Assembly (NCBI RefSeq): GCF_009914755.1
Contig: NC_060935.1
From: the human T2T-CHM13v2.0 reference genome, Homo sapiens
Length of the DNA: 64,000 nucleotides
Reading direction: 5' to 3' (one strand)
The first letter of the stretch is position 1. Each line of letters opens with the position of its first letter. Position numbers and translations under genes: made by a program. Of the stretch, positions 1 through 5,796 are shown piece by piece. The notes beneath the pieces were generated by a model, which saw nothing but the letters and a program-made list of their open reading frames with translations, was not told the origin of the DNA and did no database searches.

Positions 1-2283
1 TCACAGGGAGGGAGTTGTTTGCGCTGTCTTCTTCTCCCAGCGAAATGGTCAGCATTTTCAGAGTTCTTTTCTGTGTCTTCTCTAATGCTTAATGGTGGGA
101 AACACTTAGGAAATACCTAGAGAATGGAGTTGAATTTTTTGACTAGAGATTATGAATCCAAAGGGATGTGATCTCTAGTGGATGGAAATAGGATGTGATC
201 TTGGCATCAGTTGAATAAATGTTAGCATTGGAAATTGGAGACCCAGTGATTCAGCATTCAAGGCTCTTAATTGCAAACTAAAGACAAATGCTGGGTTTCT
301 AATTTTGCAAATAAACATATTGAAATGATATGAGTGCTTCACAATACAATGGGAAGGATGGAAAAAGACATCCGGAAATGGACAGAATCAAGAGAGACTG
401 CCCAGCCAGGGACTCAGGCAAAATTAATATATCCCTTCTTCCAATGCTTAGAGGTGACTCACAATATAGTACAATTATTTCTCACCCAAACTAAGAAAGT
501 TGATCCCTTCTTCAATAGGAAAAAACTCAACCTATGGATTAAGTGTATCAATGAATAATATTTAAAATAATGGTGTAATAGAGATGGAAAAAGGCAAGTT
601 ATTCTATTTATGCACTAACATACAAAAATCAGTAGCACTTATATATGCTAGTAGTGAATTATCTGTAAAAGAAATAAGGCAAACAATTACATTTACAATA
701 GCTACAAATGAAAAATAACTAGGAATAAACTTAACCAAGGAGGTGAAAGATTTCTACCCTGAAAACTATATAACTTTGATGAAAGAAACTGAGGAAGACA
801 CAAATAAATGGGATGATATCTTGTGTTCAAGGATTAGAAGAATGGATATTGTTAAAATAACCATACTATCCAAAGAGATCTACAGGTTTATTACGATCCT
901 TATAAAAATTTCAATGACATTCTTCACAGAAGTAGAAAAAAATCCTAAAATTCATATGGAACCATAAAAAACCCCAAATTGACAAAGCAGTCCTGAACAA
1001 AACGAATAAAGCTGAAGGCACCACACTACCTGACTTCAAAATATGCTATAAAGCTGTAGCAACCAAAACAGCGTGGGATAAAACAGATACAGAGATCAGT
1101 GAAATAAAATATAAAGTGTGGAAATAAATTCAAGCACCTAAAGTCAATGGATTTTCAATAAAGATGCCAAGAACAACACATTGGGGCAAAGACAATAAAT
1201 GGTGTTGGTAAAACTGGATATTCACATGGAGAAGAATGACATTAGACTCCTGTCTCTCACCATACACAAACATAAACTTAAAATAGAAGGAAGACATAAG
1301 TGTAAAACCATCATCTATGAAACTAACAGAAGAAAACATAGAGAAACACTTTGTAACATTGGGCTGGGCAAAAATTTTTAAAATAAGACCTCAAAATCTC
1401 AGGCATTAAAAACAAAAATAGAGAAATGGAGTTAAACTAAAAAAAATTTGCACAGCAAAGAAACTATTAACAAACTGAAGAGATAACCTACAAAATTTCA
1501 AAAAGTATTTGCAAACTATGCATCTGACAAGGGGTTATAATATAGACTATATAAGGAACTTAACAGCAAAAAACTAATTAAAAATGGGCAGATCTTAATA
1601 CACGTTTCTCAAAAGAAAACATGGCCAAACGGATGTATAAAAAATGCTTAACATCATTAATCATCAGATAATTCCAAATCAAAATTATCTTGGGATATCT
1701 CCTTACTCTTATTAGAATGGCTATGTGTCAGAAGACAGAAGTAAACAAATGTTAGCGAGGATGTGGAGGAAAGGGTACACATACGCTTACACACTGTTGG
1801 TGGAATTGTAAAGTAGTACAGCCACTATGAAAAACAGAATGGGGTTTCCTCAAGAAATTAAAAATAGAACTACCATATGATCCAGCAATCCCACTACTAG
1901 GTATATATCCAAAGGAAATGAAATCTGTATGTTTAAAAAGGTCTGCATTCCCATGTTTATTGCCACACTATATACAATAGGCAAGATATAGAATCAACCT
2001 AAGTATTTAATAATGCATAAATGGGTAAAGAAAATGTGGTATATATACACAGTGGAATACCATTCAGCCATAAGAAAGAATGAAATTCCGTCATTTGTGA
2101 CAACATGGATGAACCTGGAGAACATCATGTTAAGTGAAATAGGCCAGACATAGAAAGATATATAGCACATGATCTCACTTATATGTGAAATTCAAAAAAA
2201 ATTGGCATTATAAAAGCAGAGAGTAGAACAGTTGTTACCAGAGACTGGAGAGGAAATGGGGGAGGGAAGGATAGGGAGAAGTT
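1..2283 (+). repeat. Left arm of large inverted duplication (continues beyond window start)
   Basis: Reverse complement of 3489-5796. Positions 1-169 are identical to rc(5628-5796); the remainder is roughly 85-92% identical by eye, including unique non-repeat sequence (170-600). Confidence 0.95.
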
Positions 2284-2570
2284 GGTCAATGGTTACAAAG
2301 TTACAATGAGATAGGAGGAATACATTCTAGTGTTCTATTGCACAGTAGGGTGACTCTAGTTAATAGTAAAATATTGTATATTACAAAATGGCTAGAAGAA
2401 ATGCTTTTGAATGTTCTCATAACAAAGAAATGATAATTGCATGAAGTGATAGATATACTAACTACACTGATTGGATCATTATACAACATAGCTATGTATC
2501 AAAACATCATTGTACCCCATAAATATGGACAAATGCAATGTGCCAATTAAAAAATAAATAAAAAAATTTA
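612..2570 (+). mobile_element. 5'-truncated L1MA-type LINE-1 (ORF2 3' part, 3'UTR, A-tail)
   Basis: ORF2-like remnants (e.g. ORF 743-967 MKDFYPENY...), L1MA-type 3'UTR, A-rich tail at about 2548-2570. Confidence 0.9.
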
Positions 2571-2769
2571 AAAATAATGTGGTAATAGAGAAGAAAGAGA
2601 AGGCAAGTTATTATTTTTACCTATTAATTATCTATCTATATCTGTCACCTATTTATTTATATATCAATCTAGTCACAGCTAGAAAGGAAATATGGGTGGA
2701 ATTGGAATCCTCATTTCTGCAACTTGTTCATGAGGAATATTTATGATTTCCTTAGTCTATTACTGTTGT

Positions 2770-3400
2770 AGTCTATTACTGTAGGTTCTTCTAGAAAGCA
2801 GAGCCTGAGCTGAGAATTTAAGTTTTGATATTCTGTTTGGAAGGTAAAACCCCAGGAAGATTTAGAGGGGGAGTTGAGGGACTTGAATCCAGAATAAGTG
2901 CAAAGGAATGCAATGAAATGCATTTCTGTGTCATTGTTCACAACGAAAGAGTCAGGGAACATTACTTATTAGATATGTTCACTCAGCATGTGGGATTCAT
3001 ATGGAAGGAGAAAGTATACCTGGGAGCAGTCCATGGAGGGGAGAAAGGAAGGTATATTGATTTTCTCTGTTTCTTCTCATCTAATTTCCCATCGACTTTC
3101 CTGAACTCCCAGATTGCATTATCTGGCCCATTGATGGCCACATAGGAAGGCAGAAACCATGTTCCTCAATATGGTTATTACTGTTGGTCCAGGAGAGGAG
3201 GAAAATTTTGTGTAGAAAGGGTTGGCACATAGGCTCAATGTCAGCGAGCTTGGAAAGAAGTAGCAGAGTTTGGGAGGTGCTTGGTGTCACTAGAAGAAGA
3301 GACAGTATAGGGTTTGTATTGAGTACAGTCCATTTCTTGTGTCACTCAGATCTACTCCTGCTCTCCCATTATTCCTAGATTCTGTGGTACAAGATGGTGA
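2770..3400. mobile_element. Degenerate MaLR (MLT1-like) LTR fragment
   Basis: 'ttctctagaaagcagagcctgagctgagaattt...' resembles old MLT1 LTR ends; strongly diverged. Confidence 0.35.
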
Positions 3401-3413
3401 CTGCTTTCCATGG

Positions 3414-3488
3414 TGATATGGTTTGGCTTTGTCACCACCCAACTCTCATCTTGAATTGTAACTTCCATAATTCTCACGGGTCGTGGGA
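3414..3488 (+). mobile_element. THE1/MST LTR 5' fragment, truncated
   Basis: tgatatggtttggctttgtcaccacccaactctcatcttgaattgtaacttccataattctcac matches the THE1-type LTR start; it stops abruptly at the start of the inverted arm. Confidence 0.8.
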
Positions 3489-5796
3489 AACTTCTCCCCA
3501 TCCTTCCCTCCCCCATTTCCTCTCCAGTCTCTGGTAACCACTCTTCTACTCTCTGCTTCTATAATGCCAACTTTTTTTTAAAATTCCACATATAAGTGAG
3601 ATCATGGGCTATATATCTTTCTGTGTCAGGCTTTTTTTACTTAACATAATGTTCCTCAGGTTCATCCATGGTGTCACAAAAGACAGAATTTTATTCTTTC
3701 TTATGGCTGAATGGTATTCTACTGTGTATATATACCACATCTTTATCTGTTTATGCATTATTAAATACTTAAGTTGACTCCATATCTTGCCTATTGTATA
3801 TAGTGCGGCAATAAACATGGGAATGCAGAAATTTCTTTAATGTACAGATTTCATTTCCTTTGGATATATACCTAGTAGTGGGATTGCTGGATCATATGGT
3901 AGTTCTATTTTTAATTTCTTGAGGAAACCCCATTCTGTTTTTCATAGTGGCTGTACTATTTTACAATTCCACCAACAGTGTGTAAGCGTATGTATTCCCT
4001 TTCCTCCACATCCTTGCTAACACTTGTTTTCTCTTGTCTTCTGAGAAATAGCCATCCTAATAAGCGTGAGGAGATATCCCAAGATAATTTTGATTTGGAA
4101 TCCTCCAATGATTAATGATGTTGAGCATTTTTTATATATCTGTTAGCCATGTCATCTTTTGAGAAATGTGTATTAAGATCTGCCCATTTTCAATTGGATA
4201 TTTTTTTGCTGTTAAGTTCCTTATATAGTCTGTATTTTAACCCCTTGAGAGATGCATAGTTTGCAAATATTTTTTGAAATTTTGTAGATTATCTCTTCAA
4301 TCTGTTAATAGTTTTCCTTGCTGTGCAAAATCTTTTTACTTTGATTTAACCTCATTTGTCTATTTCTGCTTGTAATGCCTGAGCTTTTGAGGTCTAATTT
4401 TAAAAATTTTTGCCCAGCCTAATGTTATGAAGTGTTTCTCTTTCTTCTGTTAGTTTCATAGATTATGGTTTTACATTTATGTCTTCCATCTATTTTAGGT
4501 TTATGTTTGTGTATGGTGAGAGATAGGAGTCTAGTGTCATTTTTCTGCATGTGAATATCTTGTTTTACCAACACAAGTTATTGTCTTCACCCCAGTGTGT
4601 TGTTCTTGGTGTCTTTATTGAAAATCCATTGGCTTTAGGTGGTTGAATTTATTTCTATGCTTTCTATTTTGTTTCACTGCTCTATGTGTCTGTTTTTATG
4701 CCAGCCCCATGCTGTTTTGGTTACTATAGCTTTATAGTATATTTTGACGTCAGGTAGTGTGATGCCTTCAGCTTTTTTTCTTTTTGTTCAGGACTGCTTT
4801 CTCAATTGGGGGTCTTTTATGGTTCCGTATGAATTTTAGGATTTTTTTCTATTTCTGTGAAGAATGTCATTGGAATTTTTATAAGGATAGTAATAAAAAT
4901 CTGTAGATCTCTTTGGGTAGTATTGTTATTTTAACAATATCAATTCTTCTAATCCTTGAACACAAGATATCATTCCATATATTTGTGTCTTCTTCAGTTT
5001 ATTTCATCAAAGTTGTACAGTCTTTTGGAGGAGAAATCTTTCCCTTCCTTGGTTAAGTTTATTCCTAGTTACTTTTTATTTGTAGCTATTGTATATGTAA
5101 TTGTTTGCCTTATTTCTTTTACAGATAATTCACTACTAGCATATATAAATGTTACTTATTTTTGTATGTTAGTGCATAAATAAATAGAATAACTTGCCTT
5201 CTTCCTTCTCTATTACCCCATTATTTTAAATATTATTCATTGATACACTTAATCCATAGGTTGAGTTTTTTCCTATTGAAGAGGGAATCAACATTCTTAG
5301 CTTGAGTGAGAAATCAGTGTACTATATTGTGAGGCACCTCTAAGCATTGGAAGAAGGGATATATTAATTTTGCCTGAGTCCCTGACAGGGCAGTCTGTCT
5401 TGCTTCTGTCCATTTCTGGATGTCTTTTTCCATCCTTCCCATTGTATTGTGAAGCACTCAATATCATTTCAATATGTTTATTTGCAAAATTAGAAACCCA
5501 GCATTTGTCTTTAGTTTGCAATTAAGAGCTCTGAATGCTGAGTCATTGGGCCTCCAACTTTTTTTCCAACACTAACATTCATTTAACCGATGCCAAGGCC
5601 ATACCCTATCTCCTTCCACTAGATATGACATCCCTTTGGATTCATAATCTCTAGTCAAAAAATTCAACTCCATTCTCTAGGTATTTCCTAAGTGTTTCCC
5701 ACCATTAAGCATTAGAGAAGACACAGAAAAGAACTCTGAAAATGCTGACCATTTCGCTGGGAGAAGAAGACAGCGCAAACAACTCCCTCCCTGTGA
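3489..5796 (-). repeat. Right arm of large inverted duplication (includes inverted copy of the L1MA, about 3489-5180)
   Basis: Reverse complement of 1-2283; the L1 copy lacks the 3'-most ~290 bp present in the left arm. Confidence 0.95.

What the first reader, a model, noticed from the sequence alone, without database searches (positions are those of the whole stretch)
1..5796. Large inverted duplication with a perfectly homogenised tract next to the OR1S1 promoter
Seen: 1-2283 is the reverse complement of 3489-5796 around a ~1.2-kb spacer. Identity is not uniform. Positions 1-169 match rc(5628-5796) base for base, then identity drops abruptly to roughly 85-92%. Inference: this is an old head-to-head duplication with recent arm-to-arm gene conversion, or inversion crossover, in the region just upstream of the likely OR promoter. 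The symmetry (coordinate sum ~5797) predicts a minus-strand OR1S paralogue about 2.4-3.3 kb left of the window, which fits the known OR1S2. Such a palindrome could homogenise the two promoters, flip the inner ~5.5 kb recurrently, or create OR1S1/OR1S2 chimeras.
Basis: partly seen in the sequence, partly recalled or inferred. Interest (0 to 1): 0.78.

Follow-up and report, generated by a model that had tools for sequence, protein, structure and literature searches.

The report
OR1S2/OR1S1 palindrome with gene-conversion patches
Two neighbouring human smell-receptor genes sit back to back on mirror-image 6.3-kb copies of one old duplication, and short stretches, above all both promoters, have been copied from one arm to the other much more recently; this is a real example of a well-known process.

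Summary
With 20 kb of left flank added, the inverted repeat is a palindrome. Its arms are -4025..2283 (OR1S2, minus strand) and 3489..9799 (OR1S1, plus strand), around a 1205-bp spacer. There are 403 mismatches in 6228 ungapped columns.

The perfect tract is 329 bp (-159..169 = 5956..5628), not 169 bp. It lies inside a 564-bp stretch with 4 mismatches that spans the OR1S1 transcription start (6136) and about 500 bp upstream. None of 2000 permutations gave a run that long.

It is not the only such tract. A two-state model separates about 10% background divergence from about 0.7% patches in intron 1, the coding sequence and a shared L1 fragment. Patches in presumably neutral DNA favour repeated short-tract arm-to-arm gene conversion over promoter selection.

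The L1 runs unbroken from the left arm into the spacer, so the OR1S2 side keeps the ancestral context.

Inversion polymorphism and chimeras remain untested: no other haplotype or primate genome was available. I found no paper on this locus.

The kind is already known (conversion in inverted segmental duplications and in OR paralogues). Interest is modest.

The parts
1..2283 (-). In-window part of the left arm of the palindrome (OR1S2 side). The whole arm is -4025..2283, so 4026 bases lie left of the window.
   Evidence: Self-blastn of flank plus window: -4025..2283 vs 9799..3489, 91.3% over 6390 columns. Both boundaries are crisp in the global alignment. The left flank also holds the intact OR1S2 coding sequence at -3373..-2435 (minus strand, 312 codons, 27 amino-acid differences from OR1S1).
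2284..3488 (.). Spacer of 1205 bp. Its first ~290 bp (2284-~2575) are the 3' end and A-rich tail of the L1 that begins in the left arm. The rest has no other copy among the genome matches listed.
   Evidence: Genome search with the spacer: only query 1-~300 matches dispersed copies. At least three of these (C22, C9, C23) lie directly next to the places that matched arm positions up to 2255-2283. The A-rich run starts at 2554 (pair I16).
3489..9799 (+). Right arm of the palindrome (OR1S1 side).
1..169 (.). In-window part of the left copy of the 329-bp perfectly identical tract. The whole copy is -159..169.
   Evidence: Longest identical run in the arm alignment. 0 of 2000 permutations reach it.
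5628..5956 (.). Right copy of the 329-bp perfect tract, 180-508 bp upstream of the annotated OR1S1 transcription start.
5634..6197 (+). Near-identical tract of 564 columns with 4 mismatches (mirror -400..163). It covers about 500 bp of OR1S1 upstream sequence, the transcription start at 6136 and the first 62 bases of exon 1.
   Evidence: Two-state HMM segment. Feature table: 4 mismatches in the 500 columns 5636-6135. Only 2 genomic copies.
6136..6253 (+). OR1S1 non-coding exon 1 (hub annotation). 6 mismatches in 118 columns against the OR1S2 arm.
   Evidence: The GTAAGT donor follows at 6254.
6578..6880 (+). Intron-1 low-divergence tract (mirror -1110..-780): 1 mismatch in 303 ungapped columns, interrupted by a 26-bp and a 2-bp indel.
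7333..7493 (+). Intron-1 identical tract (mirror -1701..-1564): 0 mismatches in 138 columns.
8200..9138 (+). OR1S1 coding sequence. 43 of 939 bases differ from OR1S2 (which lies at -3373..-2435, outside the window), in a mosaic of patches at about 1% and about 6-9%.
617..2575 (+). 5'-truncated LINE-1 (last third of ORF2 plus 3' UTR and A-rich tail). It runs across the left-arm/spacer boundary at 2283/2284.
   Evidence: 46 genome matches at 69-80% identity, starting from query ~617. Translated pieces match human L1 ORF2p residues 769-843 (E 1.3e-21) and 1208-1259 (E 1.5e-14). Continuation into the spacer.
3489..5180 (-). Right-arm copy of the same L1, cut off at 3489 and lacking the last ~290 bp.
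   Evidence: Arm alignment. No reverse-complement match of 2284-2553 near 3197-3488.
1790..1922 (.). Low-divergence tract inside the L1 fragment (mirror 3982..3850): 1 mismatch in 133 columns, including a 116-bp perfect run at 1814-1929.

Best explanation
An ancestral OR1S gene, with about 6.3 kb of its surroundings including a dead L1 fragment, was copied in inverted orientation about 1.2 kb away. This made a palindrome whose two genes, OR1S2 and OR1S1, are transcribed outward from the centre.

The arms have since diverged by about 10% where left alone. Short non-reciprocal exchanges between the arms (interlocus, arm-to-arm gene conversion, with tracts of roughly 100-600 bp) have repeatedly reset patches to near identity. 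The longest and youngest patch covers both promoters and transcription starts: 564 bp with 4 differences, of which 329 bp are perfect.

Shown here: the architecture, the mosaic of divergence and its statistical significance, the intact paralogue, and the L1 continuity.

Inferred: that conversion, not constraint, made the patches; that the OR1S2 side is the parental context; and the ages. With recalled neutral rates of 0.5-1 x 10^-9 per site per year, the background works out at 55-110 million years. A recalled faster mammalian rate of 2.2e-9 would give about 25 million years. The promoter patch comes out within the last few million years.

A further inference: because recombination needs a stretch of near-perfect identity, patches that stay identical remain eligible for more conversion, while diverged parts escape. 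That would explain islands rather than a uniform arm.
For: - Architecture.
- Heterogeneity: the 329-bp run was reached by 0 of 2000 permutations (largest 192), and the dispersion index is 2.76 against a permutation maximum of 1.60. There are 6 identical runs of >=100 ungapped columns, against a permutation mean of 0.47 and maximum of 4 in 2000.
- Two-state HMM: emissions of 0.74% and 10.2%. BIC is 2922.7 for two states and 2968.6 for three.
- Patches lie in presumably unconstrained DNA too: intron 1 (1 of 303, 0 of 138) and the L1 fragment (1 of 133).
- The promoter (4 of 500 = 0.8%) is far more alike than the coding sequence (43 of 939 = 4.6%; dS 0.070, dN/dS 0.58) or exon 1 (6 of 118).
- The tract has only two copies in the genome, so it is not a young repeat inserted twice.
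- Polarity: the L1 is continuous from 617 through 2283 to about 2575, while the right-arm copy stops at 3489.
- Precedent: olfactory receptors are named among interlocus gene-conversion hotspots (PMC3790853, passage read).
Against: - One genome only. The defining phylogenetic signature (paralogues of one species grouping together inside the tracts but by orthology outside them) could not be tested.
- Direction and date of each event are unknown.
- The one-state HMM run failed numerically (nan), so there is no likelihood ratio against uniformity. The permutation tests stand in for it.
- The HMM fragments the arm into many short segments, so the number of events is uncertain.
- G+C is higher in the non-coding patches (40.7% against about 36%), as biased conversion would predict. 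But the rest includes AT-rich L1, so this is confounded.
- The promoter and coding patches could owe part of their similarity to constraint.
- The polarity argument also fits an originally longer right arm that later lost its inner end.
Confidence: 0.8

Rival explanations
1. Purifying selection or a locally low mutation rate, not conversion, kept the promoter tract identical since the duplication.
For: The tract coincides with the annotated transcription start and about 500 bp upstream. It holds one-mismatch matches to recalled O/E-type and homeodomain-type motifs (5991-6000, 5631-5640, 5702-5707). Such short, loose matches are expected by chance.
Against: - 329 bp without a single change and 4 changes in 564 bp, while the protein-coding sequence of the same genes differs at 4.6% and at 7% of synonymous sites.
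- Equally clean patches lie in the intron and in a dead L1.
- The inner boundary is abrupt: 0 mismatches in 329 bp, then 18 in 106.
Confidence: 0.08
2. The identical tract is an artefact of assembly or polishing (collapse of the two arms over a short stretch).
For: None from the sequence. The possibility exists for any duplicated stretch.
Against: - The tract is 329-564 bp inside arms that differ at about 10% on the inner side and carry scattered differences on the outer side. Reads of a few kb would therefore place it uniquely.
- That the assembly comes from long accurate reads of an essentially homozygous genome is recalled, not tested.
- The same mosaic recurs at several places along the arm.
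Confidence: 0.03
3. The tract marks the crossover point of an inversion between the arms (non-allelic homologous recombination), and the locus is a recurrent inversion polymorphism. Conversion is only its by-product.
For: A 329-bp perfect inverted match 5.5 kb apart exceeds the length usually quoted as needed for efficient homologous recombination in mammals (about 200-300 bp, recalled). Inverted repeats of this size are known to mediate human inversions (PMC13629690: abstract and section 4 read).
Against: - A crossover exchanges flanks but does not by itself make the arms identical.
- The other patches lie outside this point.
- No entry near this locus was found in the supplementary tables of the 612-candidate catalogue. 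Gene names gave 0 hits. Six number prefixes from recalled hg38 coordinates gave 0 chr11 hits. Region names 'mos-11-57/580/581/582' gave 0 hits. Absence from a catalogue does not show absence of the variant.
Confidence: 0.09

Closest known systems
Large sex-chromosome palindromes with arm-to-arm gene conversion (human Y P1-P8; primate X palindromes). PMC8600007, PMC8327919 and PMC8981503 were seen as search listing and abstract starts only.
   Same: Two inverted arms around a unique spacer, a gene copy in each arm, and non-reciprocal exchange between arms that resets divergence.
   Different: Those arms are >8-10 kb up to Mb and >99% identical along their whole length (as stated in those abstracts), and they are sex-linked. 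Here the arms are 6.3 kb, autosomal and about 91% identical, and only patches are homogenised.
Interlocus gene conversion among olfactory-receptor paralogues and in human segmental duplications. PMC3790853: passages read; it cites Sharon et al. 1999, which was not read.
   Same: Paralogous OR genes in one cluster exchanging short tracts, giving a mosaic of divergence within the coding sequence.
   Different: Here the clearest tract is non-coding and sits on both promoters. The partners are in inverted orientation 5.5-11.5 kb apart. None of the papers found names this particular pair.
Human inversions mediated by inverted repeats (catalogue of 612 candidates, PMC13629690).
   Same: A pair of inverted repeats within the size range of that catalogue (140 bp-190 kb) flanking a short unique segment.
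   Different: There is no evidence here for two orientations, and the locus was not found in the catalogue's tables (the hg38 coordinates I searched with are recalled).

Membership tests
Inverted (palindromic) segmental duplication | Two copies in opposite orientation on one chromosome, separated by a spacer. | tested here: met
   -4025..2283 vs 9799..3489, spacer 2284-3488.
Inverted (palindromic) segmental duplication | At least 1 kb long and at least 90% identical (the usual definition, recalled). | tested here: met
   6390 columns at 91.3% including gaps. 403 mismatches in 6228 ungapped columns, i.e. 93.5% identity.
Inverted (palindromic) segmental duplication | Low-copy, not merely two copies of a dispersed repeat. 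| tested here: met
   Only 617-2283 matches other genomic places, and those are L1 copies at 69-80% identity, against 90% between the arms. The promoter stretch has 2 copies in the genome.
Interlocus (arm-to-arm) gene conversion | Identical or near-identical fragments longer than the overall divergence allows (GENECONV-type test). | tested here: met
   329-bp run, reached by 0 of 2000 permutations. 6 runs of >=100 against a permutation mean of 0.47.
Interlocus (arm-to-arm) gene conversion | The signal is present in unconstrained sequence, so selection does not explain it. | tested here: met
   Intron patches with 1 of 303 and 0 of 138 mismatches; L1 patch with 1 of 133.
Interlocus (arm-to-arm) gene conversion | Phylogenetic discordance: paralogues group by species inside the tracts and by orthology outside them. 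| not testable with these tools
   Only this one human genome is held. The genome search states that it has no relatives here.
Interlocus (arm-to-arm) gene conversion | GC-biased outcome in converted tracts. | tested here: inconclusive
   Non-coding patches have 40.7% G+C against about 36% elsewhere. The comparison set is dominated by AT-rich L1.
Sex-chromosome-type large palindrome | Arms above about 8-10 kb with >99% arm-to-arm identity. | tested here: not met
   Arms are 6.3 kb and 91% identical. It works like these palindromes in patches but is not a member.
Polymorphic inverted-repeat-mediated inversion | Both orientations of the inner segment seen among haplotypes. | not testable with these tools
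   No other haplotypes were available. The locus was not found in the catalogue tables of PMC13629690.
Polymorphic inverted-repeat-mediated inversion | A stretch of uninterrupted identity long enough for homologous recombination (about 200-300 bp, recalled). | tested here: met
   329 bp perfect.

The most novel reading that the evidence does not exclude
The promoter island is not a single past event but a self-sustaining identity island. It is the only stretch still long and perfect enough to recombine, so it keeps being re-converted. It also serves as the crossover point for a recurrent inversion, not yet catalogued, of the 5.5-kb inner segment in human populations. The two receptors would then keep one shared promoter sequence, and so one probability of being chosen by a neuron, while their coding sequences diverge.
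Probability: 0.12. Interest if true: 0.5.

Novelty: new member of a known kind. Interest (0 to 1): 0.3.

Why it matters
- It is a compact, fully sequenced autosomal example where duplication age, polarity (from the split L1) and later conversion patches can all be read from one locus.
- The two receptor genes carry almost the same promoter but different proteins. That makes a natural test of how much promoter sequence decides olfactory-receptor choice.
- For variant calling, the 329-564-bp identical stretch means short reads cannot be assigned to OR1S1 or OR1S2 there, and paralogue-specific variants may move between the genes.
- None of this changes current understanding of gene conversion or of palindromes.

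Tried and rejected
- Pfam scan of four translated L1 pieces: 0 families for 4 of 4. The L1 identity was then shown by matches to solved ORF2p chains.
- Outer boundaries: a ~225-bp dispersed repeat lies inside both arms near their outer ends (-3927..-3700 and about 9500-9700). No repeat crosses -4025 or 9799, so the outer junction gives no polarity.
- Microhomology: none is evident at the inner or outer junction in the alignment.
- PRDM9-type 13-mer (recalled motif): no exact match. There is one one-mismatch match per arm (5893-5905 and its mirror), which is not evidence of a hotspot.
- O/E and homeodomain motif matches (recalled consensus): only one-mismatch or short matches, kept as a lead only.
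- One-state HMM fit returned nan.
- The hyper-divergent patch next to the perfect tract (18 of 106 mismatches, P = 0.02 uncorrected) is not significant once the number of possible windows is considered.
- Literature: six searches found no paper describing this palindrome, its conversion tracts or an inversion here. The single paper holding both 'OR1S1' and 'inversion' only lists two OR1S1 SNVs.
- I did not build any L1 consensus to polarise substitutions. The test would have had little power for a 133-bp tract.
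Full report

Yes. The repeat finder returned 15 collinear inverted pairs tiling 1-2283 against 3489-5796, plus one unrelated A-rich pair. A self-blastn joined them into a single minus-strand alignment of 2317 columns at 90.5% identity. In a global alignment the first difference is at 170/5627, so 1-169 equals the reverse complement of 5628-5796 exactly. 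After that, 100-column windows range from 82% to 97%.

**2. The window edge hides most of the structure.**

The genome search placed the window at C11:58156001-58220000 of the held genome, and I fetched the 20 kb to its left. Coordinates below 1 are window coordinates outside the window, as in the hub's table.

- A self-comparison of flank plus window gives one inverted alignment, -4025..2283 against 9799..3489: 6390 columns at 91.3% identity including gaps.
- Counting substitutions only, there are 403 mismatches in 6228 ungapped columns (6.5%; 254 transitions and 149 transversions). There are also 38 gap events covering 164 columns.
- The spacer is 2284-3488 (1205 bp).
- Both ends of the homology are sharp, with no evident microhomology.

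Each arm carries one receptor gene pointing away from the centre. OR1S1 coding is at 8200-9138 (+). An intact 312-codon frame lies at -3373..-2435 (-), the annotated OR1S2. It differs from OR1S1 at 27 of 312 residues and 43 of 939 bases. dS is 0.070, dN is 0.041 and dN/dS is 0.58.

**3. The perfect tract.**

It is 329 bp long (-159..169 = 5956..5628), not 169 bp. It lies inside a stretch of 564 columns with 4 mismatches (-400..163 = 6197..5634).

Against the hub's OR1S1 model (exon 1 at 6136-6253), this stretch covers about 500 bp upstream of the transcription start, the start itself and the first 62 bases of exon 1. It therefore sits on the promoter rather than beside it.

On the inner side identity collapses at once, with 18 mismatches and a 5-bp indel in the next 106 columns. 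On the outer side it decays within exon 1.

The stretch 5600-6260 occurs only twice in the whole genome, as itself and as its mirror at 98%. It is therefore not a young mobile element inserted twice.

**4. Is the non-uniformity more than chance?**

- Shuffling the mismatch positions 2000 times never produced an identical run of 329. The mean longest run was 97 and the largest 192.
- The variance-to-mean ratio of mismatches per 100 columns is 2.76, against a shuffled mean of 0.94 and maximum of 1.60.
- There are six identical runs of at least 100 ungapped columns, against a shuffled mean of 0.47 and maximum of 4. These runs ignore gap columns.
- A two-state hidden Markov model settles on 0.74% and 10.2% divergence. 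BIC is 2922.7, against 2968.6 for three states. The one-state fit failed numerically, so I have no likelihood ratio against uniformity.

**5. The promoter tract is not the only one.**

Other long low-divergence segments:

| Segment | Mismatches / columns | Note |
|---|---|---|
| Intron 1, -1110..-780 = 6880..6578 | 1 / 303 | Broken by a 26-bp and a 2-bp indel |
| Intron 1, -1701..-1564 | 0 / 138 | |
| Intron 1, -1539..-1440 | 1 / 100 | |
| Coding sequence and 3' UTR | 3 / 225, 2 / 154, 1 / 128 | Three patches |
| L1 fragment, 1790-1922 = 3982..3850 | 1 / 133 | |

Divergence by feature:

| Feature | Mismatches / columns | Divergence |
|---|---|---|
| 3' flank | 33 / 287 | 11.5% |
| 3' UTR | 19 / 360 | 5.3% |
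| Coding sequence | 43 / 939 | 4.6% |
| 5' UTR part of exon 2 | 6 / 55 | 10.9% |
| Intron | 112 / 1856 | 6.0% |
| Exon 1 | 6 / 118 | 5.1% |
| Promoter, 500 bp | 4 / 500 | 0.8% |
| Non-repeat upstream | 34 / 445 | 7.6% |
| L1 | 146 / 1668 | 8.8% |

The arm is a mosaic: patches concentrate in the 5' half of the intron, exon 1, the promoter and the coding sequence, set in a background of about 10%.

**6. What the arms are made of, and which arm is parental.**

- Positions 617-2283 of the left arm match 44 other genomic places at 69-80% identity (46 matches in all, including the query itself and the right arm).
- Translated pieces match human LINE-1 ORF2 protein at residues 769-843 (E 1.3e-21) and 1208-1259 (E 1.5e-14). 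A Pfam scan of the pieces found nothing.
- The first ~290 bp of the spacer match the same dispersed family. At several loci the spacer match lies directly after the arm match on the same strand; three examples are C22:28637150-28637836 then 28637873-28638138, C9:127023783-127024892 then 127023504-127023781, and C23:76390862-76391358 then 76390565-76390846. An A-rich tail starts at about 2554.

So a single 5'-truncated L1 runs unbroken from 617 to about 2575, across the left-arm/spacer boundary. The right-arm copy stops dead at 3489, and no reverse-complement of 2284-2553 exists near 3197-3488.

My inference is that the OR1S2 arm plus spacer preserves the ancestral arrangement, and that the OR1S1 arm is the inverted copy whose inner breakpoint fell in the L1 3' UTR. 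The alternative is a right arm that was once longer and later lost its inner end. Either way the L1 predates the duplication. The outer junctions gave no polarity information.

**7. Mechanism.**

The best reading is repeated short-tract, non-reciprocal exchange between the arms. The reasons:

- The tracts are statistically far too long for the background divergence.
- They occur in an intron and in a dead L1, where selection is not expected.
- The promoter is six times less diverged than the coding sequence of the same genes, and about nine times less than their synonymous sites.
- The inner boundary is abrupt.

Selection on the promoter alone would need 329 consecutive invariant bases, which I consider unlikely. 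The one-mismatch O/E-type and short homeodomain-type motif matches in the tract (consensus recalled) are compatible with a real olfactory promoter but prove nothing.

Rough ages, using recalled neutral rates of 0.5-1 x 10^-9 per site per year:

- Background: Jukes-Cantor distance 0.110, giving 55-110 million years. A recalled faster mammalian rate of 2.2e-9 gives about 25 million years.
- 564-bp tract: about 3.5-7 million years.
- 329-bp perfect core: younger than about 4.6-9 million years at 95%.

'Recent' therefore means recent on a primate time scale, not necessarily within human populations.

G+C is higher in the non-coding patches (40.7% against about 36%). This comparison is confounded by the AT-rich L1.

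**8. What remains untested.**

Inversion of the inner segment and chimeric genes are possible in principle. A 329-bp perfect inverted match exceeds the commonly quoted minimum for homologous recombination (recalled). I could examine neither another human haplotype nor another primate.

In the 612-candidate catalogue of inverted-repeat inversions (PMC13629690; abstract, section 4 and supplementary tables searched), I found:
- no row with the gene names;
- no chr11 row at six number prefixes derived from recalled hg38 coordinates;
- no region name 'mos-11-57/580/581/582'.

That is absence from one catalogue, not evidence that the locus never inverts.

**9. Comparison with what is known.**

The process is the one described for Y- and X-chromosome palindromes (PMC8600007, PMC8327919, PMC8981503; abstract starts only). 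It is also described for interlocus conversion in segmental duplications, where olfactory receptors are named as a hotspot (PMC3790853, passage read).

This locus fails the definition of the large sex-chromosome palindromes: its arms are 6.3 kb and 91% identical, against >8-10 kb and >99%. It meets the usual definition of an inverted segmental duplication.

Six full-text searches found no description of this pair. Supplements of genome-wide duplication or conversion surveys that I did not open may list it.

**10. Verdict.**

This is a real, cleanly resolved small autosomal palindrome with patchy arm-to-arm conversion, strongest over both promoters. It is a new member of a known kind and of modest interest. 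Its main value is as a natural experiment on promoter identity against receptor choice, and as a candidate for an uncatalogued inversion that pangenome data could test in an afternoon.

Noticed in passing
left flank -2379..-2378 and -457..-462 (mirror of window 8143-8144 and 6254-6259): The OR1S2 arm shares the OR1S1 promoter and the start of exon 1 almost exactly. At the site homologous to the OR1S1 intron acceptor it reads AA instead of AG. The donor is GTGGGT instead of GTAAGT. OR1S2, annotated as coding sequence only, must therefore splice differently or not at all.
   Followed up: partly
window 164-269 (mirror 5633-5523): Directly inside the perfect tract's inner boundary there are 18 mismatches in 106 columns (17%, 15 of them transitions) plus a 5-bp indel. 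This is above the ~10% background. The uncorrected binomial P is 0.02, which is not significant after allowing for the choice of window.
   Followed up: partly
window 6650/6651 (mirror -877..-852): A 26-bp indel sits inside an otherwise identical intron tract and is bounded by a short TTGTC direct repeat. It looks like a slippage deletion or insertion that arose after the last conversion of that patch.
   Followed up: no
window about 9500-9700 and left flank -3927..-3700: A ~225-bp dispersed repeat lies inside both arms near their outer ends. It has many genomic copies at 77-87% identity. The family was not identified.
   Followed up: no
window 10903-11190, 14878-15188, 19934-20240, 22330-22642, 26367-26663, 28107-28360 and left flank -11194..-10878: A family of ~300-bp repeats, 80-91% alike, occurs in both orientations and coincides with intervals the hub lists as masked. 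They are probably Alu elements, but the family name was not tested.
   Followed up: no
window 2576-3488: The ~900 bp of spacer beyond the L1 tail had no other match among the scored genome candidates. Its content (possible regulatory element between the two divergent genes) was not examined.
   Followed up: no
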